A stretch of 64,000 nt of DNA. Source: Desulfobacterales bacterium. GTDB taxonomy: Bacteria; Desulfobacterota; Desulfobacteria; Desulfobacterales; JAHDSC01. The DNA lies in assembly GCA_016931455.1 (NCBI GenBank), contig JAFGES010000064.1:13664-77663 (forward strand), read 5' to 3'. How positions within the stretch are numbered: the first letter of the stretch is position 1; each line of letters opens with the position of its first letter. Made by a program: the position numbers and the translations under genes. Shown here one piece after another: positions 30,579 to 56,129 of the stretch. The notes below the pieces were generated by a model. It was given only the letters and a program-made list of their open reading frames with translations. It searched no databases and had not been told where the DNA came from.

Positions 30579-30763
30579 GTTTAAATGCCATCCTACAGTT
30601 TCCGACTTTGTCCAAGGACCGGCTCGGAAATGCCTGCTTACAGACTGTAATTTTTACGAATCGATACATGAAATCTAATTCAGCGGCGGGGGATAATACG
30701 GATTTTTTTAAAAAAAGCAATATGAATTTCAGCACCTGAGAAAAATTAAAATTGAGCATATAC

Positions 30764-30809
30764 ATTGCATTGCATTATATTGCATTAAATGATAAATTAT
30801 ATATGCAAT
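30764..30809. promoter_or_regulatory. ATTGCAT repeat/palindrome cluster (operator candidate) in a divergent intergenic region
   Basis: ATTGCATTGCATTATATTGCATT, then 16 nt further, ATGCAAT (the inverted copy). Confidence 0.35.
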
Positions 30810-30931
30810 CATACCTAATATTGCGGTTTATATCGATTCCGTACAAATACAAAATTATAAAATTCCGATACATAGACTTTTCAAAAAGCAGGTTATTATC
30901 AACTCCAATATCAGAGGAAAGGAGAAGGGAA

Positions 30932-31252
30932 ATGAATCAGCGCATTTGTGGGAAGTATCTTATTATCTTGTTCAGTTTGATTGTCCTGTTTTTTCCCGTT
31001 TCGGCGACCTTTGGTGAAGAGATCTCCCCATCTCCCATAGCCACCGGAGATTCGAGTACCCCCACGAAAGATCCGGATTTAAAATTGAAACCGCCTATGA
31101 ACTTGAAATGCAGGGTATATCCATCTACCATGCAGAGGAAGAAGTTGCAGAAATCGAAATCAAAAGGGTACAAGACGATATATTCATCTGGTGAGAATCC
31201 GACAGTCTTGCCTTTTCCCCCAGAAAATCAGAACAAAGGAGAACGGAAATGA
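30932..31252 (+). pseudogene. Decayed tandem duplicate of the 5' end of the downstream MscS gene (106 codons, signal-peptide-like N-terminus)
   Basis: The RBS plus the first ~165 nt are ~75% identical to 31234-31412 (MNQRICGKYLIILFSLIVLFFPVSA.. versus MNQRIYGRYFILLSLIVLFFAVSA..). After that the frame loses similarity. The copies are offset by 317 bp. Confidence 0.5.
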
Positions 31253-32517
31253 ATCAGCGAATTTATGGAAGATATTTTATTCTTTTGAGTTTGATTGTTT
31301 TGTTTTTTGCTGTTTCGGCGGTGTTTTGCCAAGAGCTTCCCCCCTCTCCTGTAACCGCCGGAGATCCGAATATCCCGATGGAGAACCTAGATTTAATACT
31401 AAAACCGCTGACCCGGGAGGAATTGATCGTCGAAGCCGATGGATGGCGAGACCTGCTGAAAAAGAAGGTATCGGAAATCAGTATGGAGCAAATTCGGAGT
31501 AAAACCGCTGAAGATGTCGAAAAAGAGACTATTTTAAAACGGATTTCTCAACTTCGAGAAGAACGTACCGGCCTGATTGATCGTTTGAATACCGTTCTTA
31601 AAGCCTTGCTTGCCAAAGGCGGGGAAATAAAAGTTTATGAACAATATGCCAATGCGGTTTCAGGTATCGATATCGGCAGAGAGGACGCCTTTTCCACCTG
31701 GATGGCCATCCAGAGTTGGCTGTTTTCCAAAGAAGGGGGTATCCGCTGGGGGACAAATATCATCAAGTTCATCCTCATCCTGGTTGTTTTTAAAATTTTA
31801 GGCAACATCATTGCAGGGGTGACACGAAGAACACTAAAGAAAGCCAAGCTTTCGGAGTTGCTCAAGGACTTTGTGGCCAATACGGCTCAGAAAATCATGA
31901 TCATCTTGGGATTGATGATCGCCTTGTCCATGCTGGAAGTAAACATCGGGCCCCTTCTAGCCGGTCTCGGGGTCATCGGATTCGTCGTTGGGTTTGCTCT
32001 GCAGAATACCCTTTCCAATTTCGCTGCAGGATTCATGTTGCTGCTATACCGACCGTATGATATCGGTGAGGTCGTCAACGCCGGCGGCGCAATCGGAACG
32101 GTTGATTCCATGAATCTGGTATCCACCACCATTAAAACCCCCGACAACCAAAATGTGATCGTGCCCAACGGCAAAATCTGGGGGGATGTTATTACCAACA
32201 TTACCGGCAATGATATCCGACGCGTCGATTTTGTTTTCGGTATTGGATATGATGACGACATCGCCAAAGCCCAAAGTGTTCTGGAGCAAATCCTCAGCGA
32301 ACACCAAAAGGTTCTGAAAAGCCCTGCACCCCTTATCAAAGTCCATGAACTGGCCGATTCCTCAGTAAATTTTATATGTCGTCCCTGGGCGCGGACATCG
32401 GATTACTGGGATGTGTATTGGGATATCACACGGGCCGTCAAGGAAAGATTTGATGCGGAAGGCATCAGCATTCCATATCCCCAGCAGGATGTACACATAC
32501 ACCAGGTAACCGCCTGA
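31249..32517 (+). CDS. MscS-family mechanosensitive channel
   Basis: GFALQNTLSNFAAGFMLLLYRPYDIGEVV...GTVDSMNLVSTTIKTPDNQNVIVPNGKI is the canonical MscS core. Confidence 0.85.
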   Translation: MNQRIYGRYFILLSLIVLFFAVSAVFCQELPPSPVTAGDPNIPMENLDLILKPLTREELIVEADGWRDLLKKKVSEISMEQIRSKTAEDVEKETILKRISQLREERTGLIDRLNTVLKALLAKGGEIKVYEQYANAVSGIDIGREDAFSTWMAIQSWLFSKEGGIRWGTNIIKFILILVVFKILGNIIAGVTRRTLKKAKLSELLKDFVANTAQKIMIILGLMIALSMLEVNIGPLLAGLGVIGFVVGFALQNTLSNFAAGFMLLLYRPYDIGEVVNAGGAIGTVDSMNLVSTTIKTPDNQNVIVPNGKIWGDVITNITGNDIRRVDFVFGIGYDDDIAKAQSVLEQILSEHQKVLKSPAPLIKVHELADSSVNFICRPWARTSDYWDVYWDITRAVKERFDAEGISIPYPQQDVHIHQVTA

Positions 32518-32990: not shown

Positions 32991-35900
32991 ATGCATGAAA
33001 ATGGAAAGGACAATGATTTCGATCCCTCAAAAGCTGCCAATATCCTGCACCTGTCCGATCTTCATTTCGGCGCCGACAAAGAATCAGACCCCGGTGCCGA
33101 TGCGGAAAAATGGTATGGCCGGCTTGTCGATGATCTCTGCAAAGAACTCGGTTGTGAACGCCTTCAGGCGATAATTCTTTCGGGGGATATCGGCAATTTT
33201 TCCGAGTCGGAGGAATACGAGGCGGCAGAGGTCTTTATAAACAAACTTTGCAAAAAATTCAGCCTGGGCCCCTCACAACTTAGTATTGTTCCTGGAAATC
33301 ACGATCTTAACTGGAAGCTCTCTAAAAATAGCTACCGGTTTCTCTATGAGGAAAATCACGATGAGGCTTTGAAAGAAGGGCATTTTATCAGAGTCAACGA
33401 AGATCTCATCGGTCTCAGGGATGATAATGCTTACAGGAAGCGGTTTGAGCATTTCAGCCGATTCCACGAAACCATCACCGGGACTTCCTATCCCCTTGAT
33501 CCAAATGAACAGGCAATCTTCAGCCATTTATCGGAGCTGAACCTGCTTATTGTGGGTTTTAATTCTTCATGGGAAACGGATCATCATTTCAAGACTAGAA
33601 TCTCCATCAATCCGGATGCCTTTGAATCTGCATTAGATCAGATCCGGGAACGGGAGGAATATAAAAACAGTATCAAATTTGCCGTCTGGCATCATCCTTT
33701 GTCGAGTCCGGGGGATGACCGTCTCAAGGATCACGGGTTTATGCAACGTCTGGCTCAGGCGGAGTTTTGTATTTGCCTCCATGGCCACATCCACAAATCC
33801 GATGCCGGCCTGTACCGATACGATATGGCTGCCGATGGTCGCCGAATCCATGTAATTGGCGCCGGAACTTTCGGTGCGCCGGTAAAAGATTGGACACCAG
33901 GGTACCCGCTGCAATACAATTTACTTCGGCTTTCAGAAAATTCCTTGCGGGTTGAAAGCCGCTGCCGCACGGAAATCAACGGCACGTGGGGCCCGGATCA
34001 TTTGTGGCGGCAGGGTCAGGGAAAGCCCAACTTGCCGTATTACGATATTTCCCTTGCACGTATTGATGCACAAAAACCCAAGCCGCCTCCTCCACCCGAT
34101 TTCGACCTGGAGAACCAAATCCGGGACTATTGCAAAAAGGCGGAGGGCCTGCACGAAAAACTGCCCTTATTCGGCTTCAAAACACGGCTCAAGGTTCCTA
34201 TCGATATTGCGGACATTTATGTTCCCCTTCGGGCCATGATCGACTTGCGGGCAACGGGGCACTCCTATTTCGCCGATGCCGAGGATGCGGAAAATTGTCT
34301 TCGTAAGCAGGGGGTTGATCGTGAAATCTCCGTCCCCGATGCCTTTCGGGAAGCGGAAAAGATGAAACCCCCGCGCCGGGGCATCGTCATCCTTGGGGAT
34401 CCGGGTTCCGGCAAGACCACCCACATGAAACGAATTCTGCTCTGGTGCCTACGCGGTGAACTCAGTCAGATAGGGCTTCCGGAAGACATGATCCCGGTCT
34501 TTTTGCCGCTACGCGAGCTGAAAGATGTCAATAGCGGGCTGGATGCTTTCATCCAGGGCCAGCTCGCTCATCCTCTTCTGGATACACCCAAAGATTTCGG
34601 AAAGCGGTTGTTGGACCGTGGTAGCCTTCTGTTTCTCCTTGACGGCTTGGATGAAGTGGCGGACCAGAATCTACGCAGCAAGGTCTCACGTTGGATCGAG
34701 ACTGCCTTGAAAGTCCATCGCAACTGCAGGTTTGTCGTCACCTGCCGGTTTGCGGGCTATACCGAGCAAGCGCGGCTCGACGCCGATTTTCTAGAGATGC
34801 ATGTCAGACCCCTTAATGAAAATCAGGCCGAAACCTTCATTCGAAACTGGTACCGCATCGTTGAAACCGGGCTTATTTCGGACCCGGTGCAGGCCAAGGC
34901 ATTGGCCTTGGAGAAGGCGGATCATCTGATCGATCGACTCCGTAAGCCTGAATTTCGAGCGCGACGGATCTTTGAAATGACCCGTAACCCCCTGTTGCTT
35001 ACCAATATCTGCCTGGTACACCAGAGCCGGAACAATCTGCCCCAAACCCGTGCGCTTCTTTATGATGAATGCATCGATGTGCTGCTGGAAAAGTGGCGGG
35101 GTGCTATCGGCTTCCAAAGTCGGATCAAAACTCAGGGCGGCCGCCTAGTGCTTCAGCCTGCGGCCTTGTGGATGCACCAGGAAGAGAATCGCAGACGGGC
35201 CTCGGCGGCTGAGCTGTCACCGATTATCGAACCGGCATTGAAAGCCGTGGGTTGGCAGCATGGGTCAGCGTCCGATTTCCTCGAGTTAATTCGGGATGAA
35301 AGCGGCCTGCTGACCGGCTGGAGCGGTGATCAATACGGCTTCATGCACCTGGGCTTTCAGGAATATTTGGCCGCCAGGGAAATTCAGAACCGGGCCTTTC
35401 GCGACCGGAAAATACTTCGAGAATTGGCAAAGCGCTTCGGAGAGAGCTGGTGGCAGGAGGTGACACTGCTCCTTTTGGCATTGGACAACCCCTGTCTTTT
35501 TGCGGAGTTTATGGAGGAAGTGGTCAAATTGTCCGCATTTGCGGATTATACTGAATTTATGGCGATGTGCCTGGAGGAATCATCGGAAAGGACCGTCGAG
35601 CCCTTTATGGAGTTGCTTAAGGCTGAGCCCGGAGAAAATGAAGAGTTTTGGGTTCGGCAGCTTGCGGCGCTACGAATCGTCGAGCGAATGGACAAAACTA
35701 CCCTCGAATCCATGGCATCGAAACTTCGAATGCATCCCTACAGCAAGATCAGGAAATGGTTTGAAACCCGGAACATTGAGACAGGACAGGAGGTCATTCA
35801 GGCAACGCAGGGCGGTTATGAACTTGTTTTTGTCCCGGGCGGCAGGTTCTTGATGGGATCTCCGGCTATGGAGCAAGGGCGTTATGATTGGGAAGGTCCT

Positions 35901-36527
35901 CAACATGAAGTGACCGTGCCTGATTTTTACATAGGCCGTTATCCGGTTACAAACGAGGAATATGGTCGGTTTATCCAAGCTACATCGTATCAAGAACCCG
36001 AATATTGGGGTGATCGTAGATACAACCAGCCCCGGCAGCCGGTTGTGGGGGTGAGTTGGCACGATGCAAAAGCCTTTGCCGAATGGGCCGGTCTGCAGCT
36101 TCCGTCTGAGGCTCAGTGGGAATATGCCTGCCGCGCGGGCACCACCACGCCGTATTACAGCGGAAATTCGGAGACTGATCTTGAGCGTGCCGGATGGTAT
36201 TATCGAAACTCAGGAGACAAATTGCATCCTGTCGGTGAAAAAGAACCCAATAATTTCGGTCTTTATGATATGCACGGCAATGTGTGGGAATGGTGTGAGG
36301 ATCATTGGCATAGCAATTACAAAGATGCACCGATCGATGGCAGTGCCTGGGTGGATCGAAATGAGGGCGGGAACCGGGTCCTTCGCGGCGGCTCGTGGGG
36401 CTACGGTGCCGGGTACTGCCGGACGGCGTCCCGCGTCAGGCGCGGCCCCGACCTCCGGGGCAACGACTACGGGTTCCGGCTTGTCCGCCTTCCAGGTCAC
36501 CGGGCCAGGTGGATGCCGGCCTGCTGA
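32991..36527 (+). CDS. NLR-like STAND NTPase (1178 aa): N-terminal calcineurin-like metallophosphoesterase, central NACHT P-loop NTPase, helical region, C-terminal FGE-sulfatase (C-type-lectin fold) domain
   Basis: MPE motifs LSDLHFG, GDIGN, VPGNHD, WHHP, LHGHIH. Walker A GDPGSGKTT and Walker B LLFLLDGLDEV. FGE motifs FLMGSP, YPVTNEEY, VVGVSWHDA, LPSEAQWEYA, YDMHGNVWEWC, RGGSW, YGFRLVR. Confidence 0.85.
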   Translation: MHENGKDNDFDPSKAANILHLSDLHFGADKESDPGADAEKWYGRLVDDLCKELGCERLQAIILSGDIGNFSESEEYEAAEVFINKLCKKFSLGPSQLSIVPGNHDLNWKLSKNSYRFLYEENHDEALKEGHFIRVNEDLIGLRDDNAYRKRFEHFSRFHETITGTSYPLDPNEQAIFSHLSELNLLIVGFNSSWETDHHFKTRISINPDAFESALDQIREREEYKNSIKFAVWHHPLSSPGDDRLKDHGFMQRLAQAEFCICLHGHIHKSDAGLYRYDMAADGRRIHVIGAGTFGAPVKDWTPGYPLQYNLLRLSENSLRVESRCRTEINGTWGPDHLWRQGQGKPNLPYYDISLARIDAQKPKPPPPPDFDLENQIRDYCKKAEGLHEKLPLFGFKTRLKVPIDIADIYVPLRAMIDLRATGHSYFADAEDAENCLRKQGVDREISVPDAFREAEKMKPPRRGIVILGDPGSGKTTHMKRILLWCLRGELSQIGLPEDMIPVFLPLRELKDVNSGLDAFIQGQLAHPLLDTPKDFGKRLLDRGSLLFLLDGLDEVADQNLRSKVSRWIETALKVHRNCRFVVTCRFAGYTEQARLDADFLEMHVRPLNENQAETFIRNWYRIVETGLISDPVQAKALALEKADHLIDRLRKPEFRARRIFEMTRNPLLLTNICLVHQSRNNLPQTRALLYDECIDVLLEKWRGAIGFQSRIKTQGGRLVLQPAALWMHQEENRRRASAAELSPIIEPALKAVGWQHGSASDFLELIRDESGLLTGWSGDQYGFMHLGFQEYLAAREIQNRAFRDRKILRELAKRFGESWWQEVTLLLLALDNPCLFAEFMEEVVKLSAFADYTEFMAMCLEESSERTVEPFMELLKAEPGENEEFWVRQLAALRIVERMDKTTLESMASKLRMHPYSKIRKWFETRNIETGQEVIQATQGGYELVFVPGGRFLMGSPAMEQGRYDWEGPQHEVTVPDFYIGRYPVTNEEYGRFIQATSYQEPEYWGDRRYNQPRQPVVGVSWHDAKAFAEWAGLQLPSEAQWEYACRAGTTTPYYSGNSETDLERAGWYYRNSGDKLHPVGEKEPNNFGLYDMHGNVWEWCEDHWHSNYKDAPIDGSAWVDRNEGGNRVLRGGSWGYGAGYCRTASRVRRGPDLRGNDYGFRLVRLPGHRARWMPAC
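36366..36497 (+). other. Candidate DGR variable region VR-1 (last 44 conserved codons of the FGE domain)
   Basis: See the first finding: compared with 39264-39395 there are 29 identical codons, and 18 of 20 differences fall at codon positions 1-2. Confidence 0.55.
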
Positions 36528-36530
36528 CCC

Positions 36531-36546
36531 GGACGGAATCCCGTCC
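36531..36546 (+). other. GC hairpin (6-bp stem, 4-nt loop) followed by TTTT, ~32 nt after VR-1. Either a terminator or a DGR target-recognition hairpin.
   Basis: GGACGG-aatc-CCGTCC, then CCGGTTTTAT. Confidence 0.4.
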
Positions 36547-36657
36547 CCGGTTTTATCTGGGGCGAAAACGCAACACCCTGCCGGGGCTGGTAGCTTGAGC
36601 GGATGCCTGGTGAAGGTCCCGACGGGTTTTTACACCATAAAAAATAAGTAGGTAAAT

Positions 36658-39419
36658 ATGGAAGATAAGAATCTTATTACCATTATCGTTGCTTTAGGTG
36701 TCGCGATTTTTTTGTGGGTGCTGACCCAAATATGCCAATTGGCCATGAAGGATGTATACAATTACCTGAAGGGATTGATAAAAAGAAAATCCCATAATAC
36801 AATCTCAACTAAATCCTCTGAAAACGATGTTCACATTCATCAGGGTGACGAAAAGGGTTGGGAAGAATCTAACCTAAAGCGTTACCTAAGGCGGCTTATT
36901 GCAAAATGTGATCCACTGGATCTTGCAGTGACGGAAGAGACATGCCAAACGTCTATCTCGGCGAATGATTTACCACCTATCCGGGTTTACCTCAAATACC
37001 CGGAACGTCGATCCGGTCAGTCGATAAAAGAAGCCATTGAACAAAGGGATAAAGAGGATGGTTTAAAAGAAGGAAAACAAATCCCTATCCAGGCCGTCGA
37101 GGCTACAGTCGCTGTTTCAAGGATGGTCATGCTCGGGCGGCCCGGGGGCGGCAAGAGCACCCTTGTCAATTATCTTGCCGCTCAGTTGGCCCAAAGACGG
37201 CTAGGCGAGCAGGAAAAAGAAGCTGGTTTGCTCGCCTGGCCTCCTGAAGATAAGCCGCTTCCGGTCAGAATTATTCTACGACAAATGGCTGCCTGGATTG
37301 GGGAAGAGGTGCAAAAAGGCACCGAAGGGCTTGTCTGGAGCTATCTGGAACACCTGCTTGGCGAATGGGGCTGTGCTGATTTTATATCTTATTGCAAACA
37401 TATTTTGGATGAAGAAGGCGGTATCATATTCTTTGACGGGTTGGATGAAGTGGGGGAGGCAGAAGAAAACCGCAAGCGAAGCTTAATCTTGCAGGCGGTG
37501 GAAGATTTTGCCAAACCATTGAAAAAGTGCCGTGTAATTGTGACCTGTAGAGAATATTCCTATAAAGAAAAAGAAAATGTCGGAGGTACACACTGGCGCC
37601 TGCCGGAGGCTGAATTTCCGGTAACCGAACTTGACTTGTTCCGGGATGAGCAGATCAAATCATTTTCACGTACCTGGTATCGGATCACGGGAAATCGAAA
37701 AGGGTGGGCTCCGGAAAAGTGTGATGCGGAAGCTAATGCTTTTTGCCAAGGCATTATGTCATCACCCAATCTCAGATCACTTGGGGAAAACCCGCTTCTT
37801 TTGACACTCATGGCTCAAATTCACGGTAGACTGGGATATCTGCCCAAGGACCGCGCAGATCTTTATGAGAAGGTGGTAAAGCTTCTGCTGGCACATTGGG
37901 AAAACCGAATTATCAGGGATGTCAATGGCACTTGTCGCATAGAACCTTGGATTGTCATGCGCCTGGGAGTGCCTGTCGATACGCTCAGGGTGCCCCTGGA
38001 ACGGGTAGCGATTTACGCCCATGAGCAGCAGGAAAATGCGCGTACAGACAAACTTACCTGCGCCGACATTCCTCGGGAAGATCTCCGAAGAGAACTGGCT
38101 GCAAACCTGAAAAATGATTTAAACAAAGCTGAAAAATTTATCGAGTATATAGAAAACCGCGCCGGACTTTTGCAGGCTGTTGATAACCGAATATTCAGGT
38201 TTCCGCACCGCACTTTTCAGGAGTATCTGACAGCCACCGGTATTATGCGAACAAGCAACCCTATAGACATGCTCATCGGACGATTGCGTCGTGATCCATC
38301 TTGGTGGCAGGAGGTGTTTTTGTTGGCCGCAGGTTCTACTCGCAACACACCGTTAAATATCTATTATCTTTTGGATGCGTTGTTGCCGGAAGATCCCGAT
38401 GCTGTTAATTTAACACCTGAAAATGTAAGAATGGCTGAAATTGCTGCCAGGGCGATTTACGAAACGGATTTTATGGATAGGTGGAAGAAGAAATTCGGGA
38501 TGATAAAGATAATGCCAAAAAATTTTCAAAAATTCATCGCCGAATTCAAAAATGGCTATCGACGGCAATGACCGCTGATACTGTGCTGACCCCCAAACAA
38601 CGCTGTGATGCGGGTAATGCGCTTAACTGGGTGAAAGATCCCCGATTCGATCCGGGCATATGGTATCTGCCGAATGACGAAAATCTGGGATTTGTGGATA
38701 TTCCAGCAGGTTCGTTTAAGATGGGAAGCGATAAAAATAGGGATTCTAAAGCCGCTGATAATGAATTCCCGCAACACATCGTTAAATTATCGTCTTATGC
38801 TATCGGCAAATATCCGGTTACTGTGGCTCAATACCGGGTGTTTGCCGAAGAGACAGAACGCAAATTGGATGAAAATTGGCAAAAATACAACCGCTACGAT
38901 AACCACCCCGTTGTGAAGGTTAACTGGCCTGATGGCATGGCCTATTGCAAGTGGATGACCGGTAAAATGAATAACATGGGGAAAGCCTGGATCATCACTT
39001 TGCCGACCGAAGCCCAATGGGAAAAAGCGGCCAGAGGAAATGACGCATGGATATATCCGTAGGGGGATGAACCGGATCCCAATAAAGCAAATTATGATAA
39101 AACAGGCATCAATACGACTACTCCGGTAGGATGCTTTTCCGGCGGAAAAAGTCCGTATGAAGTTTTGGATATGGCGGGCAATGTATGGGAGTGGTGCCGG
39201 GACTGGTATGCTAAAGATTATTATTATAAAAGTCCGGAAAAAGATCCTATCGGTCCCGATGATGGCGGGAACCGGGTCGTACGCGGCGGCGCGTGGTACT
39301 ACGATGCCGGGTACTGCCGGTCGGCGTACCGCGACGGGGACGTCCCCGACTTCCGGGACGGCATCTACGGGTTCCGGCTTGTTCGCCTTCCAGGTCAGCC
39401 TGGTGAGCCAAGCAAGTAA
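36658..39419 (+). pseudogene. Second NLR-like gene (N-terminal TM helix, NACHT, helical region, FGE-sulfatase domain), disrupted by a frame change within 38478-38571 and an in-frame TAG at 39060-39062
   Basis: Track pieces 36658..38571, 38481..39062 and 39165..39419. Walker A GRPGGGKST and Walker B IIFFDGLDEV. The FGE domain is split exactly at the conserved YPWGDE motif (reads YP*GDE, so TGG became TAG). The last two pieces share one frame. Confidence 0.7.
39264..39395 (+). other. Candidate DGR variable region VR-2
   Basis: Sister of 36366-36497. It retains A at more of the variable sites (TAC, GAT, TAC, GAC, GAC, GAC, ATC). Confidence 0.55.
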
Positions 39420-39441
39420 AGTGGGGGATGCGTAGTGCGGA

Positions 39442-39505
39442 ATCGATTGAATCATCCGTACGGAGCACTTCGGGACGAAGGCGGAGTCGGATGATTCATA
39501 TCGAT
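39442..39505. other. Long imperfect inverted repeat (17-18 bp arms, one bulge) enclosing a nested 5-bp hairpin, 47 nt after VR-2
   Basis: ATCGATTGAATCATCCG ... CGGATGATTCATATCGAT. The loop contains CTTCG-gga-CGAAG. Confidence 0.6.
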
Positions 39506-39636
39506 GGAGCACGGAGCATCCCGGTGTTCGGGAATCCAGTCGAAACACTAATTTACGGCAGCCGACGAGTGCCTGAAAATTTGATAAACGAATAATGATG
39601 AAACAAGGCAACAATAGAACAAGGAGGTAAAGGGTT

Positions 39637-48151: not shown

Positions 48152-49132
48152 GTGATCATTGAGGAATTAAACCAACGGGTCGAAGAGAAGCATCTGCTGG
48201 TTAACAGCATCAAAAACGAAATCGGTAAAATTCTCGTAGGCCAGCGGAATCTGATAGAAAGTATGCTGATCGGCCTTTTTACCAAAGGCCATATTCTGAT
48301 CGAAGGCGTTCCGGGTTTAGCCAAAACCAGTGCCGTTATGGCCCTCGCCGGCACTGTCCATGCCGATTTTAAGCGCATCCAGTTCACCCCCGACCTGCTT
48401 CCGGCTGATTTGATCGGTACGGAAGTCTTTCGACCCAAAACCAGTGATTTTACGATAAAAAAAGGCCCTATTTTTCACAATATCATTTTAGCGGATGAAA
48501 TCAATCGGGCACCTTCCAAAGTACAGTCCGCATTGCTTGAGGCCATGCAGGAACGACAGGTGACTATTGGAGAGTCGACCTTCCCGCTTTCTGATCCATT
48601 CCTGGTGATGGCGACTCAAAATCCAATCGAGCAGGAGGGAACCTATCCACTGCCTGAAGCCCAGGTCGACCGATTCATGCTCAAAGTGATTATCGACTAC
48701 CCGGATAAAACCGAAGAAAAAGAAATCATGAGGCGCGTGGGCTTTGAAAATGCTTCTACAGTTAAAGAGGTTATTCACCCGGCTCAACTGAATGAAATTG
48801 TTGCGTTGATAAAAGAGATTTACATGGATGAAAAGCTCAAAGATTATATTGTCGATATCGTCTTTGCTACGCGCAAACCGGCTGATTACAAGATCGATAT
48901 ATGCGACTATGTTCAGTTCGGCGCTTCACCCCGGGCGACGATCTTTTTGAGCCTGGCTGCCAGGGCCTATGCTTTTCTGCAGGGTAGAGCCTATGTAACC
49001 CCACAGGATATCAAAACCGTGGCTCCAAGTGTCCTGCGTCATCGAATCATTTTGTCGTATGAAGCCGAGGCGGAAGATATTACAACGGAGCAAATTATCG
49101 GTCATGTGTTTGATTCCATCGAGGTTCCCTAA
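48152..49132 (+). CDS. moxR: MoxR-family AAA+ ATPase
   Basis: GHILIEGVPGLAKT Walker A, ILADEINRA Walker B and VMATQNPIEQEGTYPLPEAQ.DRF. Confidence 0.9.
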   Translation: MIIEELNQRVEEKHLLVNSIKNEIGKILVGQRNLIESMLIGLFTKGHILIEGVPGLAKTSAVMALAGTVHADFKRIQFTPDLLPADLIGTEVFRPKTSDFTIKKGPIFHNIILADEINRAPSKVQSALLEAMQERQVTIGESTFPLSDPFLVMATQNPIEQEGTYPLPEAQVDRFMLKVIIDYPDKTEEKEIMRRVGFENASTVKEVIHPAQLNEIVALIKEIYMDEKLKDYIVDIVFATRKPADYKIDICDYVQFGASPRATIFLSLAARAYAFLQGRAYVTPQDIKTVAPSVLRHRIILSYEAEAEDITTEQIIGHVFDSIEVP

Positions 49133-49138
49133 AATAAA

Positions 49139-50017
49139 ATGCTTTCGCCGGAATTTATTAAAAAAATAAAAAAGATCCATATCAAAAGCGGTCGTCTCGT
49201 CAATACCATGATGGCCGGCCAATATAAGTCCGTTTTCCGAGGTTCGGGAATTGAGTTTGAGGAAGTTCGAGAATACTGTCCGGGAGATGAGGTCAAAAGC
49301 ATTGATTGGAAAGTTTCGGCACGTCTGGGACGCCCCTTTGTCAAACTCTACAGGGAAGAACGTGAGTTGATGGTAATGCTGCTCGTGGACATGAGCGCTT
49401 CAGGATGCTTTGGAACCACCGATAACGTTAAAAAAGAAACTGCTGCAGAGGTTGCTTCGATTCTAGCATTTAATGCCATCCGTAATAACGACAAAGTCGG
49501 TGCGATTTTATTTACCGACCGGGTTGAAAAATATATTCCGCCCCAAAAAGGATCCGCTCATGTTTGGCGGGTCATCAAAGAAATCTTTGCATTTGAACCC
49601 CAACATAAAGCCACCGATATTGAAAATGCAATCCGTTATTTCGGCAGAGTTTGCCGGAAGAAAACCGTTTCCTTTCTAATTTCCGATTTTCTGTGTCAAG
49701 GCTATTTGCGGCAGCTTAAAATTGCCGGAAAAAAGCATGAACTTATCGGTGTCCTCCTATCTGATCCGGGGGAATTTAATTTGCCGGAGGCCGGTATTTT
49801 TGCGGTAGAGGATTTTGAAACCGGTGAGCATTATTTTTTCGATGCATCGGATAAAAAAACGCGGCAAGCATTTGAAAAACAGAAAAAGGATGAGTACCGG
49901 CAAACGCTTGAAATGCTCAAAAGCGCAGATATTGATTCCATTGAAGTCAGCACGGATTGCTCGGCAGCAGAGGCCCTGACTAAATATTTTCGATACCGGG
50001 AAAAAAGGATGCGATGA
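49139..50017 (+). CDS. DUF58 (vWA-like) protein, MoxR partner
   Basis: G.YKSVFRGSGIEFEEVREY.PGDEV..IDWKVSAR signature. Confidence 0.85.
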   Translation: MLSPEFIKKIKKIHIKSGRLVNTMMAGQYKSVFRGSGIEFEEVREYCPGDEVKSIDWKVSARLGRPFVKLYREERELMVMLLVDMSASGCFGTTDNVKKETAAEVASILAFNAIRNNDKVGAILFTDRVEKYIPPQKGSAHVWRVIKEIFAFEPQHKATDIENAIRYFGRVCRKKTVSFLISDFLCQGYLRQLKIAGKKHELIGVLLSDPGEFNLPEAGIFAVEDFETGEHYFFDASDKKTRQAFEKQKKDEYRQTLEMLKSADIDSIEVSTDCSAAEALTKYFRYREKRMR

Positions 50018-50691
50018 TGCTTCGTGTGCGTATGCTTATTTTGTTCGTCATGCTTTGCGGTTTAGGCAGCCCGCTTTTCGCCCGGACAAATCCGATGACA
50101 AGCCCGACGGACGCAAATCAGCTCATTGAAAATGTAGGTATGACTGAAAAAGGGGCGGTTGAAACTCAACCGCTGATGACCGATATCCATGACATTAAGC
50201 CGCCTGAAAAGCTTGGAATCAATCCGGCATTTTTACAGTATACGCTCTATGGTTTGATCGGTGTTTTGATTGCGGCATTTGTGGCTGCGGCTATTTATTA
50301 TTACCGGAAAAAACGCGGCAAAAAAGAAATCAAAACCGTTGTGCCCACCTTAGCACCGGATGAAGCGGCATTCAGGGCTTTGGATGAGTTGCTTGAACTA
50401 TTAAATTCGGACGGCAAAAAATTTTATTTCCGGATTTCAGCCGTCCTAAGAGGATATATTCAGCAGCGGTTTGACATCGATGCTTTGGAGATGACCACGG
50501 AAGAGCTGCTCCCGAGGGTCGGCGAAATGAAACTGGAAGATGTATTAAAAAAGGGCTTTCGAGAGTTTATATATACGAGTGATCCGATTAAATTTGCCGG
50601 ACGATTTGTCGACAAAGAAAAGATGCACGGGCATCTTGAGTTCGTGAGAGAATTTGTAGAAAAAACAACACCGGCTATAAGGTATAAGTGA
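50014..50691 (+). CDS. DUF4381-like membrane protein of the Bat operon
   Basis: Operon position, a single TM segment after the DIHDIKPP motif, and a 4-nt overlap with the upstream gene. Confidence 0.65.
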   Translation: MMLRVRMLILFVMLCGLGSPLFARTNPMTSPTDANQLIENVGMTEKGAVETQPLMTDIHDIKPPEKLGINPAFLQYTLYGLIGVLIAAFVAAAIYYYRKKRGKKEIKTVVPTLAPDEAAFRALDELLELLNSDGKKFYFRISAVLRGYIQQRFDIDALEMTTEELLPRVGEMKLEDVLKKGFREFIYTSDPIKFAGRFVDKEKMHGHLEFVREFVEKTTPAIRYK

Positions 50692-50780
50692 AAAAATATG
50701 AGCTGTCGATCGATGCAGCCATTAAAATGGTAGGTTTTTGTCGATAGTTCAAAAAGCAAAGATATAATTTTAGCATAAAT

Positions 50781-51779
50781 ATGTTTCGATTCGCATCGCC
50801 TTATTTCTTTCTGGTTCTCGCCGTTATACCAACGGCGCTTTATTATCAACGACGCAGACGGATTTATCCGGTGATGCGTGTATCCGGAACGTTTGCCCTT
50901 CGGGGCGTTCAGAAGTCGGTTTTCATAAAAATACGATGGCTTATGCCTCTTCTGAAATATACGGCATTCGGCTTGATGGTCATTGCCATGGCCCGGCCCC
51001 AGTGGGGCACCCGGCAAGTGAATATCTTGACGGAAGGTATCAATATCATTCTTGCCGTTGATGTATCCGAGAGCATGGCGGCGCTTGATTTCAAGCTTAA
51101 CGGCAAAATCGTCAACCGTCTGGAAGCCGTTAAAGGAGTAATCCGGAACTTTATCATGAAAAGAAACGGGGACAGAATCGGCATGGTGGTTTTTGGCTCC
51201 AATGCCTATACTCAGGTGCCCCTGACACGCGATTATACAACCATAGTCTCTATCCTCGAGCGCCTTAAAATCGGTGCAGCCGGTAAAAGTACGGCCATCG
51301 GTGATGCCGTCGGCATTTCACTCAAGAGGCTGGAAGATTTGAAAAGCGTGTCCAATATCATCATATTATTGACCGATGGACGTAGCAATACCGGTGAACT
51401 GTCTCCGTCGACGGCAACTGAAATTGCGGTTCAAAAAAAGGTCAAGATTTATACGATCGGGGTAGGCGGCAAAGGTCAGGCTCCGTTTCTGGTGAACCAT
51501 CCCTTGTTGGGTGAACGATATATCTACCAGCAGGTCGATATTGATGAAGATACATTGCAAGATATTTCTTCCAAAACCGGCGGATTATATTTCAGGGCCG
51601 AAAATACCGAAGGTTTACAAAAAATTTACGATACCATCGACACCCTGGAAAAAACCGAAGTTAAAGTCAAGACATTTGCGGAATATCGGGAACTTTATCG
51701 ATATTTTTTGATTCCGGCTTTCACCATCATGATTTTTTGGATCATTCTCATCAATACACGTTTCTTGAGGGTACCATGA
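50781..51779 (+). CDS. batA: BatA (TM plus von Willebrand factor A domain)
   Basis: ILAVDVSESM MIDAS motif, LLTDGRSN, and N- and C-terminal TM helices. Confidence 0.85.
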   Translation: MFRFASPYFFLVLAVIPTALYYQRRRRIYPVMRVSGTFALRGVQKSVFIKIRWLMPLLKYTAFGLMVIAMARPQWGTRQVNILTEGINIILAVDVSESMAALDFKLNGKIVNRLEAVKGVIRNFIMKRNGDRIGMVVFGSNAYTQVPLTRDYTTIVSILERLKIGAAGKSTAIGDAVGISLKRLEDLKSVSNIIILLTDGRSNTGELSPSTATEIAVQKKVKIYTIGVGGKGQAPFLVNHPLLGERYIYQQVDIDEDTLQDISSKTGGLYFRAENTEGLQKIYDTIDTLEKTEVKVKTFAEYRELYRYFLIPAFTIMIFWIILINTRFLRVP

Positions 51780-53566
51780 AGTTTGTCCAATTGGAAATGC
51801 TTTTGTCTATCTGGGCGATTCCGGTGCTTTTAATGGTATTTCTTTACGGTATGCACCGGCGGCGCACAATTCTTTCGCAATTTGCTTCCAATAAAGGATT
51901 GAAAGCCATTGTTCCGGAGGTGGATTTTAAGAAGCGTTGGATCAAAGCGGCTCTAATGCTTTGTACGCTTTTTTTTACGGCCTTGGCTCTTGCCGGCCCC
52001 CAGTACGGTTACAAATGGGAGGAAATTGAGCGTAAAGGGATTGATATCATTCTTGCCTTGGACTGCTCCAAAAGTATGTTGGCTGAAGATATGCAACCGA
52101 CGCGGCTGGACCGTGCCAAACGTGAGGTTTTTGATCTGCTGAACATGCTTCAAGGTGATAGGGTGGGGTTGGTCGCTTTTGCCGGCACTGCTTTTCTGCA
52201 GTGCCCGCTGACAATCGACTATGAGACCTTTCACCTTTTTTTAAATACCTTGACGCCCGACTTTCTGCCTGTCGGCGGCACCGACATTGCGGCAGCGATT
52301 CAGACTGCTCTTTCCGGATTCAACGAGAAAGACAATTCTGAAAAGGCCGTTATCCTTATAACGGATGGGGAAAATACGGGTGGTGATGCCGTCAAGGCCG
52401 CCGAAACCGCGTCCAAGGCAGGAGTAAAACTTTTCTGCATTGGTGTCGGCAGCGCTGAGGGGGTGCCGGTGCCGGATAAGCAAGGTGGGTTTAAAAAGGA
52501 TATAACCGGCAACATTGTGCTCACTCATCTGGATGAGGAGACTTTGAAGAAAATAGCCGTGTTGACCGGTGGCACCTATGTCCGCTCGGTTGCCGGGGAC
52601 ATGGATTTGGACATTATTTATCTGCAGGAAATTCGTGCTAAAATGGATGCGGCTACGCTTTCCAGCGGCAGAAAACAAGTTTGGGAGGACCGCTTTCAGT
52701 GGTTCCTATCTATTGCGTTGATTGCTCTGATAGTCGATTTTTTCTTGCCGGCCGTCAAAAAAAATAAGATGATTCTAATTTTATTATTAATTCCATTAGT
52801 TAATGTTTCGGCTGCTTTCGCTGCAAGCAATTACAAAAATCTACAGCAAGGGCTTGAAGCTTATGAAAAAGGCGATTATGAAAAAAGTTTGAAATTTTTT
52901 ATCGATGCCCAATTGGAGAATCCGGAAAGATCTGAAATTTATTATAATATCGGCAATGCATATTATAAAACCGGTGATTTTGAATCCGCATTAAAAAATT
53001 ATCAAGAAGCCTTGAAATGCAAAGACAATGCGCTGAAGGCCAAGACCTTTTATAATCTCGGCAATACCAATTATCGCAATGGTAAGCTGGAAGATGCGGT
53101 TACCAATTTCCAGCAGGCGCTTAAAATCAATCCCGAAGACAAACAAGCCAAGCAGAACTTGGAATTTGTAAAAAAAATAATCGCGCAGCAAAAACAGCCG
53201 CAGACGCAGAATCAGCCCCGAAACAATCAAGAAGAAAAAGACAAAGATAAAGAAAAGACCGAAGATCAGAAAAGTAAGAGCGAAAATCAATCGCAAAAGC
53301 CGGATGCCGGAAAATCCCGGAAGCAAGAAGCCGGCCCTGATAAATCTTCACAAACTGAATCTTCCGATCAGGAAAAAGATACGAGTAAAGGCAATAACAA
53401 CGATCAGGATCGAAATCAATCTGCCGAATCAATGTCTTTGCCGGAATCGGATACAAACGGCCCGGACAAAAATCAGGCCGAAAAAATGCTGAACCGCTTA
53501 CGTGATATGCCGGGCAGAGCCATGATTCCGTCTTACAGGGAAAAATATGTGGAAAAAGATTGGTGA
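51776..53566 (+). CDS. batB: BatB-BatC-like fusion: TM, vWA domain, TPR repeats and a long K/E/Q/D-rich tail
   Basis: Preferred start is ATG 51776 (ATGA overlap with batA). ILALDCSKSM, ILITDGEN, then TPR units (YYNIGNAYYKTGDFESA...). Confidence 0.85.
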   Translation: MKFVQLEMLLSIWAIPVLLMVFLYGMHRRRTILSQFASNKGLKAIVPEVDFKKRWIKAALMLCTLFFTALALAGPQYGYKWEEIERKGIDIILALDCSKSMLAEDMQPTRLDRAKREVFDLLNMLQGDRVGLVAFAGTAFLQCPLTIDYETFHLFLNTLTPDFLPVGGTDIAAAIQTALSGFNEKDNSEKAVILITDGENTGGDAVKAAETASKAGVKLFCIGVGSAEGVPVPDKQGGFKKDITGNIVLTHLDEETLKKIAVLTGGTYVRSVAGDMDLDIIYLQEIRAKMDAATLSSGRKQVWEDRFQWFLSIALIALIVDFFLPAVKKNKMILILLLIPLVNVSAAFAASNYKNLQQGLEAYEKGDYEKSLKFFIDAQLENPERSEIYYNIGNAYYKTGDFESALKNYQEALKCKDNALKAKTFYNLGNTNYRNGKLEDAVTNFQQALKINPEDKQAKQNLEFVKKIIAQQKQPQTQNQPRNNQEEKDKDKEKTEDQKSKSENQSQKPDAGKSRKQEAGPDKSSQTESSDQEKDTSKGNNNDQDRNQSAESMSLPESDTNGPDKNQAEKMLNRLRDMPGRAMIPSYREKYVEKDW

Positions 53567-53628
53567 TGTTCCCGGTTCGTTTGGAAATGTACAGGCCGCA
53601 AGATTTATAGAAAGCTTTAATATATAAA

Positions 53629-55368: not shown

Positions 55369-56129
55369 ACCCCTTTAAAAAAATAGGTATATATTTTTTG
55401 ATATTTTTTGTCCCCCTGATTACCATAGTCGAAGCCGGTGAACGGATGGATTTGACCGAAGCATTCTTAAACGGAATAAAGCATTATAAAGTTGAAAATT
55501 TTGATGCCGCCGTCACCGAATTTAATAAAATAGTAGATGCAGGAATTCATAGCGGCAAAGTCTTTTATAATCTTGGCAACGCTTATTTAAAAAGTGGTGA
55601 TATCGGCCGTGCTATTTTTTGGTTCGAGCGTGCCGTTAAGCTCATGCCCCATGATCCTGATCTGAAATTCAATTTGGACTATGCTCTTTCTCTAGTAAAG
55701 GATGAAAAGGAAGATAAGACCGTGTCTGTTTATAACATACTGTTTTTTTGGAATAAAATATTAAATGCAAGGACTATTCAATGGATAGCCGTCATTTCAA
55801 ATGGACTTTTCTGGCTTTTTTTGGCACTGAAAATCTTGTTTCGAAAAAAGGTATTTAAATTGCAGGCTTATTTGGTTTTAATTCCGACCGCTATATTCAC
55901 CTTGACAACCTTCTTTAACTTATATGAGGCAAGATACATAAAACATGCGATCATTATTCCGGAGAAGGTAGCGGTTCGATCCGGTTTAAATAGAGACTCG
56001 ACTGAGCTTTTTGTCTTGCACGCCGGAACCAAAGTGAAAATCCAAAAGGAAAATAAAGACTTTTATAGAATTTATTTTTCAGATGGTAAGATCGGATGGA
56101 TAAGAAAATATGAGGTCGCTATTATTTGA
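55365..56129 (+). CDS. BatE-like TPR plus SH3-like protein
   Basis: TPR (FYNLGNAYLKSGDIGRAIFWFERA), TM helices, and a C-terminal SH3-like segment (GTKVKIQKENKDFYRIYFSDGKIGWI). Confidence 0.7.
   Translation: MNPFKKIGIYFLIFFVPLITIVEAGERMDLTEAFLNGIKHYKVENFDAAVTEFNKIVDAGIHSGKVFYNLGNAYLKSGDIGRAIFWFERAVKLMPHDPDLKFNLDYALSLVKDEKEDKTVSVYNILFFWNKILNARTIQWIAVISNGLFWLFLALKILFRKKVFKLQAYLVLIPTAIFTLTTFFNLYEARYIKHAIIIPEKVAVRSGLNRDSTELFVLHAGTKVKIQKENKDFYRIYFSDGKIGWIRKYEVAII

What the first reader, a model, noticed from the sequence alone, without database searches (positions are those of the whole stretch)
36366..39395. The 3' ends of the two NACHT-FGE genes look like sister DGR variable regions; template repeat and reverse transcriptase are not in the window
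I aligned 36366-36497 with 39264-39395 codon by codon (44 codons, both in frame). 29 codons are identical at all three positions. 14 codons carry non-synonymous changes. 18 of the 20 nucleotide differences sit at codon positions 1-2, with the third base (nearly always C) retained. The pairs are GGC/TAC, GGT/GAT, ACG/TCG, TCC/TAC, GTC/GAC, AGG/GGG, CGC/GAC, GGC/GTC, CTC/TTC, GGC/GAC, AAC/GGC, GAC/ATC, TCG/GCG and CTT/GTA. There is only one purely synonymous difference (GTC/GTT). Just upstream the same genes diverge like ordinary old paralogs: in GNVWEWC the differences are GTG/GTA, GAA/GAG and TGT/TGC, and neighbouring residues are unalignable. Identity also ends abruptly after CTTCCAGGTCA. Perfect identity interrupted by scattered NNC-type codons, at the C-terminal end of a C-type-lectin/FGE-sulfatase fold, is what diversity-generating retroelements produce by adenine-specific mutagenesis of an AAC-rich template repeat copied into variable regions. 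Every variable site here can be explained by an A in a shared template. The consequence would be a hypervariable ligand-binding face on NLR-like STAND NTPases, that is, a diversifiable sensor on an immune-type switch. No RT, Avd or third copy is visible in these 64 kb, so the retroelement would have to act in trans.
Basis: partly seen in the sequence, partly recalled or inferred. Interest (0 to 1): 0.85.

Follow-up and report, generated by a model that had tools for sequence, protein, structure and literature searches.

The report
Orphaned retroelement repeats on NACHT sensor genes
The two matching gene ends are real products of a diversity-generating retroelement on bacterial NLR-like sensor genes, a kind already published. 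Here the reverse transcriptase and template have been cut out, leaving a recognisable scar, and the second gene is broken, so this is most likely a decaying relic rather than a working hypervariable sensor.

Summary
Window 36361-36499 and 39259-39397 are 85% identical GC-rich islands (75%/70% G+C; window 44%). They have 20 differences, 18 of them at codon positions 1-2, and there is no third copy and no RT in the window.

They are DGR variable repeats by homology. They align with the VRs and TRs of intact HRDC-RT-TR cassettes in related Desulfobacterales contigs. 15 of the 20 variable sites are adenines in the closest TRs (p~1e-8).

New here: the 140 nt after repeat 1 (36493-36632) is the structured element that directly follows the template repeat in every related locus where a TR is present (model built without the window: 111 bits, E=4e-23). 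Repeat 2 keeps the VR-type flank. The simplest history is VR1 x TR recombination that excised the HRDC and RT genes. Gene 2 also carries a frameshift and an in-frame TAG.

So this is a degenerate DGR locus. Diversification in trans is neither shown nor excluded. DGR-diversified STAND/NACHT-lectin sensors and degenerate loci were described by Doré et al. 2024 and Kaur et al. 2020. Interest is modest.

The parts
32991..36527 (+). Gene 1, an intact 1178-aa ORF: calcineurin-like phosphoesterase (Metallophos), NACHT, then FGE-sulfatase (C-type-lectin fold). It equals NCBI MBN1931273.1 from a Desulfobacterales MAG. Its last 9 codons (HRARWMPAC*) are now read from the TR-type flank.
   Evidence: Pfam: FGE-sulfatase 2.8e-61, NACHT 2.4e-17, Metallophos 2.8e-06. 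100% match to P0018. The FGE domain matches the PDB entry 2y3c, the T. denticola DGR variable protein TvpA, at E=4e-31.
36361..36499 (+). Repeat 1 (VR1): an adenine-poor DGR variable repeat that encodes the end of gene 1's FGE domain. It ends in the VR-type CAGGTCA.
   Evidence: Against the TRs of L027/L029 it mismatches at 17 of 27 TR adenines but only 12 of 101 other positions.
36493..36632 (+). TR-type 3' flank, a structured element of four helices. In related cassettes it directly follows the template repeat. Here it is fused to VR1, with the junction inside TCA at 36497-36499. This is the scar of the deleted cassette.
   Evidence: A covariance model built from four intact loci without the window scores 111.3 bits, E=3.7e-23, full length, and this is the only hit in the window. 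blastn against the L029 TR plus flank gives 81% over 227 nt, E=3e-58. The consensus fold has 44 pairs, 10 of them with compensatory changes. The window copy has 3 broken pairs, against 2 in the intact copies.
36658..38571 (+). Gene 2, N-terminal part (NACHT/STAND NTPase, 637 aa). It is cut off by a frameshift near 38520-38535.
   Evidence: Pfam NACHT scores 26.3 bits, just under the 26.7 cutoff. The L024 gene 2 protein aligns in one frame up to residue 595 and then continues in another frame. The same sequence is present in Logan contig L021.
38502..39419 (+). Gene 2, C-terminal FGE-sulfatase part, in a different frame. It is interrupted by TAG at 39060-39062 (YP*GD, from TGG to TAG). Gene 2 is a pseudogene.
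   Evidence: It is 52.6% identical to the C-terminal part of L024 gene 2 across the stop codon.
39259..39397 (+). Repeat 2 (VR2): a DGR variable repeat that ends in CAGGTCAG.
39391..39530 (+). VR-type 3' flank, homologous to the flanks downstream of VRs in L029, L031, L023 and L024. It contains a long imperfect hairpin at about 39448-39498.
   Evidence: blastn of the VR2 region against the L029 VR1 region gives 75% over 203 nt. Folding gives z=-2.86.

Best explanation
The two blocks are variable repeats (VRs) of a diversity-generating retroelement (DGR). The DGR belongs to the HRDC-accessory type found in Desulfobacterales and other multicellular or aggregating bacteria. In the past both VRs were overwritten by adenine-mutagenised cDNA copied from one template repeat (TR). 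That gave two NLR-like proteins (effector, NACHT and FGE/lectin sensor) different ligand-binding faces. In the closest locus with a long contig (L024) the order is target 1 with VR1, HRDC gene, RT gene, TR, a structured ~140-nt flank, then target 2 with VR2. In this window VR1 is joined directly to that TR-type flank, inside the trinucleotide TCA, and gene 2 starts about 25 nt after the flank ends. The inferred step is unequal recombination between the direct repeats VR1 and TR. It removed the HRDC and RT genes and the TR body. VR1 is therefore predicted to be frozen: it has lost the VR-type 3' flank, the part that target recognition needs in the Bordetella phage prototype. It also lacks the conserved RT 3'-end segment that precedes every intact TR, so it is unlikely to serve as a template. 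VR2 keeps its VR-type flank, but it sits in a gene with a frameshift and a nonsense codon. The locus is thus a degenerate DGR relic. Further diversification would need a second, compatible DGR elsewhere in the genome. Shown: VR homology, coincidence of variable sites with TR adenines, the TR-flank fusion, absence of RT and TR in the window, and the lesions in gene 2. Inferred: the deletion mechanism and present inactivity.
For: L024 is a textbook DGR. Its gene order is Metallophos-NACHT-FGE (66% identical to gene 1), HRDC, RVT_1, TR, NACHT-FGE. TR-to-VR mismatches fall at TR adenines in 17 of 18 and 19 of 20 cases. Its RT best matches the PDB reverse-transcriptase chain 8ub7_A (E=1.7e-36); that this entry is the Bordetella phage DGR enzyme is from memory, not from the table. 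The window VRs align with L024's VRs and TR. 15 of the 20 window-variable sites are A in the TRs of L027, L029 and L032 (p about 1e-8). Most non-adenine mismatches to those TRs are shared by VR1 and VR2, which points to one common template. Across the related loci compared, every TR ends CAGCTCA+CC and every VR ends CAGGTCA+G. Window repeat 1 reads CAGGTCA+CCGGGCC, a hybrid. The TR flank is conserved and covaries, and the model built without the window hits 36493-36632 at E=4e-23. There is no RT or HRDC trace in the window. An independent k=31 Logan contig from SRR13394437 spans 36267-39194 at 100% identity without a break. Gene 2 lesions are shown. Other degenerate products occur in the same clade. 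L025/L026 have an adenine-poor repeat at an FGE gene end followed by CAGCTCA and the TR flank, with no RT. L012 has lost HRDC and most of RT but keeps the RT 3' end, the TR and the flank. L031 has a TR 5' half joined to a VR 3' half with a VR-type flank.
Against: The window's own TR was never found, so A-specificity is tested only against heterologous TRs. 4-5 variable sites are not A in them. The junction lies in the last 3 nt of the VR/TR homology, which is an unlikely place for a random crossover. The flank shows almost no decay (3 broken pairs against 2). The deletion is therefore either recent or the element is still under selection. The closest gene 1 homologue (L023, 71% identical) shows no recognisable HRDC gene in the 768 nt before its contig ends, so the ancestral gene order is not certain. 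The NACHT part of gene 2 is only 32% identical to that of L024 gene 2. The rest of the 113.7-kb contig and of the MAG could not be read.
Confidence: 0.68

Rival explanations
1. [quoted passage not shown]
For: Trans-acting diversification of remote or incomplete loci is documented in Thiohalocapsa PB-PSB1 (PMC10907252). VR2 keeps a VR-type flank. Both VRs remain sharp GC islands. RT cassettes of this clade mostly assemble as contigs of about 1.7-2.1 kb and so are easily lost from MAGs.
Against: No RT or TR was recovered from the same sample. The three related Logan RT proteins that were looked up come from other runs. VR1 has a TR-type rather than a VR-type 3' flank. The gene carrying VR2 is a pseudogene. 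The Logan contig crosses VR1 and the flank unbranched, so VR1 shows no high-frequency heterogeneity and no second copy of the identical flank at similar coverage. In this clade the VR/TR end differs at two conserved bases.
Confidence: 0.22
2. No retroelement was involved. Recent gene conversion between two paralogues was followed by positive selection on binding residues.
For: There is a sharp-edged identity block between otherwise diverged paralogues (39% protein identity). The excess of non-synonymous changes could reflect selection.
Against: This does not explain the 70-75% G+C island in a 44% genome. It does not explain why the variable sites coincide with adenines of TRs from other organisms (p about 1e-8). 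It does not explain the homology of both blocks to VR/TR sets of intact DGRs. It does not explain the TR-type and VR-type flanks.
Confidence: 0.02
3. The junction is an assembly artefact. The real genome has the intact cassette, and the assembler jumped from VR1 into the TR flank through shared k-mers.
For: VR and TR are near-identical repeats, which are a classic cause of collapsed assemblies. Many RT contigs of this clade break at these repeats.
Against: In related loci, VR1 and a canonical TR share only TCA after the discriminating G/C base, which is too short for any k-mer join. Two different assemblies (the MAG contig and the Logan k=31 contig L021) give the identical junction, and L021 does not branch there. 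An independent MAG pair shows the same kind of fusion (L025/L026). However, both window assemblies probably come from the same reads.
Confidence: 0.06
4. The fusion of VR1 with the TR flank is functional. A selected VR variant has been captured next to the priming element and serves as a new template for an RT supplied in trans.
For: The flank is as well preserved as in intact loci (111 bits; 3 broken pairs against 2). A second fusion of this kind exists (L025/L026).
Against: Only 5 of the 20 VR1/VR2 differences have A in VR1, so VR2 was not written from VR1. VR1 lacks the conserved RT 3'-end segment (TTTGGGGTTCCGTCCTGA) that precedes every intact TR and is retained even in the RT-deleted locus L012. 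[quoted passage not shown]
Confidence: 0.03

Closest known systems
Clade 5 (5D-type) DGRs that diversify STAND-NTPase/C-type-lectin 'putative antigen sensors' in multicellular bacteria (Doré et al., PNAS 2024, PMC10907252)
   Same: There are two target genes, each with a single C-terminal CLec/FGE domain and a central NACHT/STAND NTPase. The VR lies at the 3' end. Degenerate loci that lack RT or TR occur. The RT relatives found here come from Desulfonema, Ca. Magnetoglobus, Ca. Magnetomorum and Desulfobacterales MAGs.
   Different: In the window the RT, accessory gene and TR are all absent, and one target is a pseudogene. In PB-PSB1 the disruption of DGR loci was linked to transposons. Here it is a clean fusion of the VR to the TR flank, with no mobile element nearby. 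Clade membership of the lost RT cannot be tested.
Bordetella phage BPP-1 DGR (Mtd / Avd / bRT / TR): IMH and hairpin target elements (PMC3240598) and TR-flanking RNA needed for cDNA priming (PMC6182149; 10.1101/2023.10.23.563531)
   Same: Adenine-specific TR-to-VR transfer in the relatives. A short TR/VR difference at the 3' end of the repeats (CAGCTCA against CAGGTCA). A structured sequence downstream of the VR. A structured RNA segment downstream of the TR.
   Different: The accessory protein is HRDC rather than Avd. The TR lies downstream of the RT. The flanks are longer (about 140 nt) and unrelated in sequence. That these flanks do the same jobs as in BPP-1 is inferred, not tested.
Treponema denticola TvpA (PDB 2y3c), a DGR variable protein with an FGE-type C-type-lectin fold
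   Same: The FGE domain of gene 1 matches TvpA at E=4e-31 over its C-terminal 145 residues, which include the VR.
   Different: TvpA is a lipoprotein with no NTPase. Here the domain is the C-terminal sensor of an NLR-like protein.
FGS/FGE-domain effectors linked to DGRs in NTP-dependent conflict systems (Kaur, Burroughs, Iyer, Aravind, eLife 2020, PMC7159879)
   Same: A hypervariable FGS domain always at the C-terminus, combined with NACHT/STAND and calcineurin-type phosphoesterase modules, in multicellular prokaryotes.
   Different: That work centres on MoxR-vWA ternary systems. This locus is a stand-alone effector-NACHT-FGE protein. The MoxR/Bat operon at 48-56 kb is unrelated housekeeping.

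Membership tests
Complete diversity-generating retroelement | A DGR-type reverse transcriptase gene | tested here: not met
   There is no ORF of 150 aa or more with YxDD. tblastn with the L024 RT finds nothing.
Complete diversity-generating retroelement | A template repeat whose mismatches to the VR fall at TR adenines | tested here: not met
   There is no third copy in the window. Scans of the genome, metagenome and viral collections found no cognate TR. Only heterologous TRs could be compared.
Complete diversity-generating retroelement | An accessory gene (Avd or HRDC) | tested here: not met
   tblastn with the L024 HRDC protein gives only noise.
DGR variable repeat (target side) | Sequence homology to VRs and TRs of demonstrably intact DGRs | tested here: met
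   73-81% nucleotide identity to the VR/TR sets of L024 and L029. L024 shows 17/18 and 19/20 adenine-specific mismatches.
DGR variable repeat (target side) | Variable positions correspond to template adenines | tested here: inconclusive
   15 of 20 sites are A in the TRs of L027, L029 and L032 (p about 1e-8), and 16 of 20 are A in at least one TR. The locus's own TR is unknown, and 4-5 sites are unexplained.
DGR variable repeat (target side) | Located at the C-terminal end of a C-type-lectin/FGE fold | tested here: met
   The Pfam FGE-sulfatase match runs to profile position 255 of 255 in both genes.
DGR variable repeat (target side) | VR-type 3' recognition flank | tested here: inconclusive
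   VR2 has it, by homology to the VR flanks of L029, L031 and L023. VR1 does not: it carries the TR-type flank instead. The function of the flank in this clade has not been tested.
DGR variable repeat (target side) | Ongoing diversification (within-population polymorphism at A-sites) | not testable with these tools
   Reads are not available. The only indirect hint is that Logan contig L021 is unbranched across VR1.
NLR-like STAND/NACHT NTPase | NACHT domain above the Pfam threshold, between an N-terminal effector and a C-terminal sensor | tested here: met
   Gene 1: NACHT scores 63.7 bits against a 26.7 cutoff, flanked by Metallophos and FGE. Gene 2: 26.3 bits, just below the cutoff, and the gene is disrupted.
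TR 3'-flank RNA element of this DGR clade (defined here; not in Rfam) | Match to a covariance model built from TR flanks of intact cassettes | tested here: met
   111.3 bits, E=3.7e-23, model positions 1-138 of 138. No Rfam family matches at E of 1 or less.

The most novel reading that the evidence does not exclude
Recombination between VR and TR may be a recurrent, possibly regulated, way for these sensors to leave hypermutation. The fusion would fix a selected sensor variant and excise the RT in one step. The retained TR-flank RNA could then keep a role, for example as a template or decoy for an RT supplied in trans. The window, L025/L026, L012 and L031 would then be different outcomes of one process rather than random decay.
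Probability: 0.07. Interest if true: 0.7.

Novelty: new member of a known kind. Interest (0 to 1): 0.33.

Why it matters
The finding confirms that sister-VR signatures (GC island, variation at codon positions 1-2, A-involved differences) can be recognised from raw sequence even without the TR. It also gives a warning: such a signature does not show that the system is active. This locus documents one concrete way a DGR can be lost. The VR and TR are direct repeats that bracket the RT, so one crossover removes the whole machinery and leaves a diagnostic scar, the TR-type flank after a VR. It also yields a conserved, covarying ~140-nt element downstream of the TRs of this DGR clade that is absent from Rfam. 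That element can be used to find TRs and deletion scars in fragmented metagenomes, where RT cassettes usually assemble as orphan contigs of about 2 kb.

Tried and rejected
Exact-protein look-ups of gene 1 (also as P0018) and of the 234-aa neighbour found no record. The NCBI contig could therefore not be extended beyond the window.

A 29-mer VR pattern found nothing in genome contigs. That pattern would also have missed a true TR, because related TRs read GAGAAC where both VRs read GGGTAC.

The metagenome scan returned only VRs of other organisms. These were useful as positive controls (L009, L010 and L012 are DGRs) but none is the cognate TR. The viral scans were empty.

A search with the VR peptide alone gave only distant short fragments.

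I tried to find an RT from the same sample by looking up related Logan RT proteins.

I considered repeat 1 itself as the TR for repeat 2 and rejected it, because only 5 of the 20 differences have A in repeat 1.

I considered the Logan contig breaks at 36267-36295 and at 39194 as signs of VR heterogeneity and rejected that. They lie in the conserved GNVWEWC motif about 65 nt upstream of each VR, not at the variable sites.

I considered pyrrolysine read-through of the TAG. It is unlikely to rescue the gene, because the codon replaces an invariant Trp and the gene is also frameshifted.

The ORF downstream of the gene in L023 is not HRDC.


Full report
**Observation.** The two segments are as described. 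The codon alignment of 36366-36497 with 39264-39395 gives 29 identical, 14 non-synonymous and 1 synonymous codon. The 20 differences fall at codon positions 9/9/2. The repeat finder gives one 139-nt pair, 36361-36499 and 39259-39397, at 85% identity. Identity collapses on both sides. The two FGE domains are only 39% identical in protein overall. The blocks have 75% and 70% G+C in a 43.7% G+C window. 13 of the 20 differences involve an adenine although A is 10.5% of the bases (null 0.27, p=4e-4). There is no third copy on either strand. There is no ORF of 150 aa or more with YxDD and no tblastn trace of an RT or HRDC protein.

**The genes.** Gene 1 (32991-36527) is an intact Metallophos-NACHT-FGE-sulfatase protein of 1178 aa. 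It is identical to MBN1931273.1 from a Desulfobacterales MAG, on a contig of 113.7 kb. Its FGE domain matches the DGR variable protein TvpA (PDB 2y3c) at E=4e-31.

Gene 2 is not intact. The homologous protein of L024 aligns in one frame up to residue 595 and then in another frame, so there is a frameshift near 38520-38535. A TAG at 39060-39062 replaces the Trp of YPWGD. Both lesions are also present in an independent Logan assembly of run SRR13394437, in contig L021, which is 100% identical over 36267-39194.

**What the repeats are.** The closest homologue of gene 1 on a long contig is P0020 (66% identical, a 4.4-Mb ENA contig, locus L024). It is followed by an HRDC gene, an RVT_1 gene, a 133-nt template repeat and a second NACHT-FGE gene. 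In L024 the TR-to-VR mismatches fall at TR adenines in 17 of 18 and 19 of 20 cases. The RT best matches the PDB reverse-transcriptase chain 8ub7_A at E=1.7e-36; I recall this entry as the Bordetella phage DGR enzyme, but the table names it only "Reverse transcriptase". The window repeats align with these VRs and this TR.

Closer TRs were found in L027, L029 and L032. 15 of the 20 window-variable sites are adenines in each of them (hypergeometric p from 1e-8 to 9e-8). Each window repeat mismatches them at 15-20 of 27-30 adenines but at only 11-13 of about 100 other positions. Most of those non-adenine mismatches are shared by both repeats, so the two repeats were written from one common template. 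Unrelated metagenome loci picked up by a VR pattern served as positive controls. L009/L014 and L010/L016 carry sister VRs plus an adenine-rich TR next to an RT, and their sister-VR difference spectra (61-68% involving A) match the window's 65%. Gene conversion plus selection cannot explain these facts.

**The new point.** The 140 nt after repeat 1 are not like the sequence after repeat 2. They are homologous to the sequence that follows the template repeat in L024, L028, L027, L029, L032 and L012. The window differs from L027 at a single base across the ~55 nt following TCA.

This flank folds into four helices: 44 predicted pairs, 10 of them with compensatory changes among five sequences. A covariance model built from four intact loci, without the window, hits 36493-36632 at 111 bits, E=3.7e-23, full length. 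That is the only hit in the window. The model also hits directly after the TRs of L012 and L029. Rfam has no matching family.

Repeat 2 keeps the other kind of flank. It is homologous to the sequences downstream of the VRs in L029, L031, L023 and L024, and it contains a long hairpin. Across the related loci compared, every TR ends CAGCTCA+CC and every VR ends CAGGTCA+G. Window repeat 1 reads CAGGTCA+CCGGGCC.

**Inferred history.** VR1 and the TR are direct repeats that bracket the HRDC and RT genes, about 1.8 kb apart in L024. One unequal crossover at their 3' ends would delete HRDC, RT and the TR body. It would leave gene 1 with VR1, then the TR flank, then gene 2, which is what the window shows. 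Gene 2 starts at 36658, about 25 nt after the flank ends.

Supporting context comes from three other loci in the same clade:
- L025/L026 (two Desulfobacteraceae MAGs) show another FGE gene whose adenine-poor repeat is followed by CAGCTCA and the TR flank, with no RT.
- L012 has lost HRDC and most of the RT but keeps the last RT codons (...FGVPS*), an adenine-rich TR and the flank.
- L031 has an RT followed by a TR 5' half joined to a VR 3' half with a VR-type flank. It is a single short-read contig and is not verified.

**Consequences (inferred).** In the Bordetella phage prototype, a structured sequence just downstream of the VR is required for efficient retrohoming (PMC3240598). RNA on both sides of the TR is required for cDNA synthesis (PMC6182149; 10.1101/2023.10.23.563531).

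VR1 has lost the VR-type flank, so it is probably no longer a recipient. It also lacks the conserved RT 3'-end segment (TTTGGGGTTCCGTCCTGA) that precedes every intact TR, and only 5 of the 20 differences have A in VR1. It is therefore not, and has not been, the template for VR2. VR2 could still be a recipient, but its gene is dead. I conclude that this is a degenerate DGR locus.

**Caveats.**
- The cognate TR was never found, and the remainder of the contig and MAG could not be read.
- The junction lies in the last 3 nt of the homology, an unlikely place for a random crossover.
- The flank shows almost no decay (3 broken pairs against 2), so the deletion is either recent or the element is still selected.
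- The closest gene 1 homologue (L023, 71% identical) shows no recognisable HRDC gene in the 768 nt before its contig ends.
- Misassembly is unlikely. After the discriminating base only TCA is shared, and the k=31 contig does not branch there. But both assemblies probably use the same reads.

**Comparison with the literature.** DGRs that diversify C-terminal C-type-lectin domains on STAND/NACHT proteins are already described in PMC10907252. That paper reports cassettes that commonly have two such targets, 'degenerate' loci lacking RT or TR, and trans activity. The link between FGS domains, DGRs and calcineurin-type effector modules is described in PMC7159879. The window adds a degenerate member from a Desulfobacterales MAG, a specific route of decay, and a candidate RNA motif.

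**Verdict.** The DGR origin of the repeats is supported (about 0.95). Deletion of the cassette by VR x TR recombination is the best explanation (about 0.7). Current trans activity is unproven (about 0.2). The kind of system is known, and interest is modest.

Noticed in passing
L012:1006-1470 (RCNG010053239.1): This is an RT-less locus. The VR with its VR-type flank is followed by a remnant of only the last RT codons (...PGFGVPS*), and then by an intact adenine-rich TR and the TR flank. The ~20 nt of RT 3' end (TTTGGGGTTCCGTCCTGA) are conserved at nucleotide level upstream of every TR seen. They may be part of the functional template RNA.
   Followed up: partly
L031:1740-2015 (Logan SRR7589087): An RT (called as a truncated 285-aa product) is followed by a chimeric repeat. 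The 5' half is TR-like (AAC-rich) and the 3' half is VR-like, ending CAGGTCAG with a VR-type flank. This looks like the reciprocal kind of TR x VR recombination, or else a graph artefact.
   Followed up: partly
L025:1-1320 and L026 (Desulfobacteraceae MAGs S24.Bin080 and S23.Bin075): A second example of an FGE gene whose adenine-poor repeat is followed directly by CAGCTCA and the TR-type flank, with no RT before the next gene.
   Followed up: partly
protein hits: Most contigs that carry RTs of this clade are only about 1.7-2.1 kb long, roughly the length of HRDC plus RT. This is as expected if assemblies break at the flanking VR and TR repeats, so such cassettes will often be missing from binned MAGs.
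   Followed up: no
C-termini of gene 1 homologues; window 39391-39419: Many homologues from different taxa end in ...GFRL(V/A)xLPGQPGEP..., beyond the lectin fold. This 'protein' conservation probably reflects DNA-level conservation of the VR 3' end and flank (CCAGGTCAGCC.GGTGAGCC).
   Followed up: partly
window 3894-16613 (- strand): A cluster that includes a phage-tail-sheath-like protein (14348-15430), a 1405-aa NHL-repeat protein, a 1141-aa coiled-coil-like protein and several ORFs with no Pfam match. It may be a contractile-injection-system-like locus.
   Followed up: partly
window 30907-31408: Direct repeats with a spacing of about 315 nt (64 nt at 81% and 132 nt at 73% identity). They span the start of ORF 30752-31252 and the start of the MscS-type channel gene 31249-32517, which suggests a tandemly duplicated N-terminal segment or small gene.
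   Followed up: no
window 48152-56129: A MoxR (AAA_3) - DUF58 - BatA/BatB (vWA) - BatD - TPR operon. It looks like the ordinary Bat aerotolerance-type cluster and is not linked to the NACHT-FGE genes. The 49-nt repeat at 51034/52035 lies in the two vWA paralogues.
   Followed up: partly
window 36267-36295 and 39165-39194: The Logan contigs of SRR13394437 break exactly in the GNVWEWC-encoding motif upstream of each VR. This implies that other FGE genes in that sample share ~30-mers there, so further paralogues or strains may be present.
   Followed up: no
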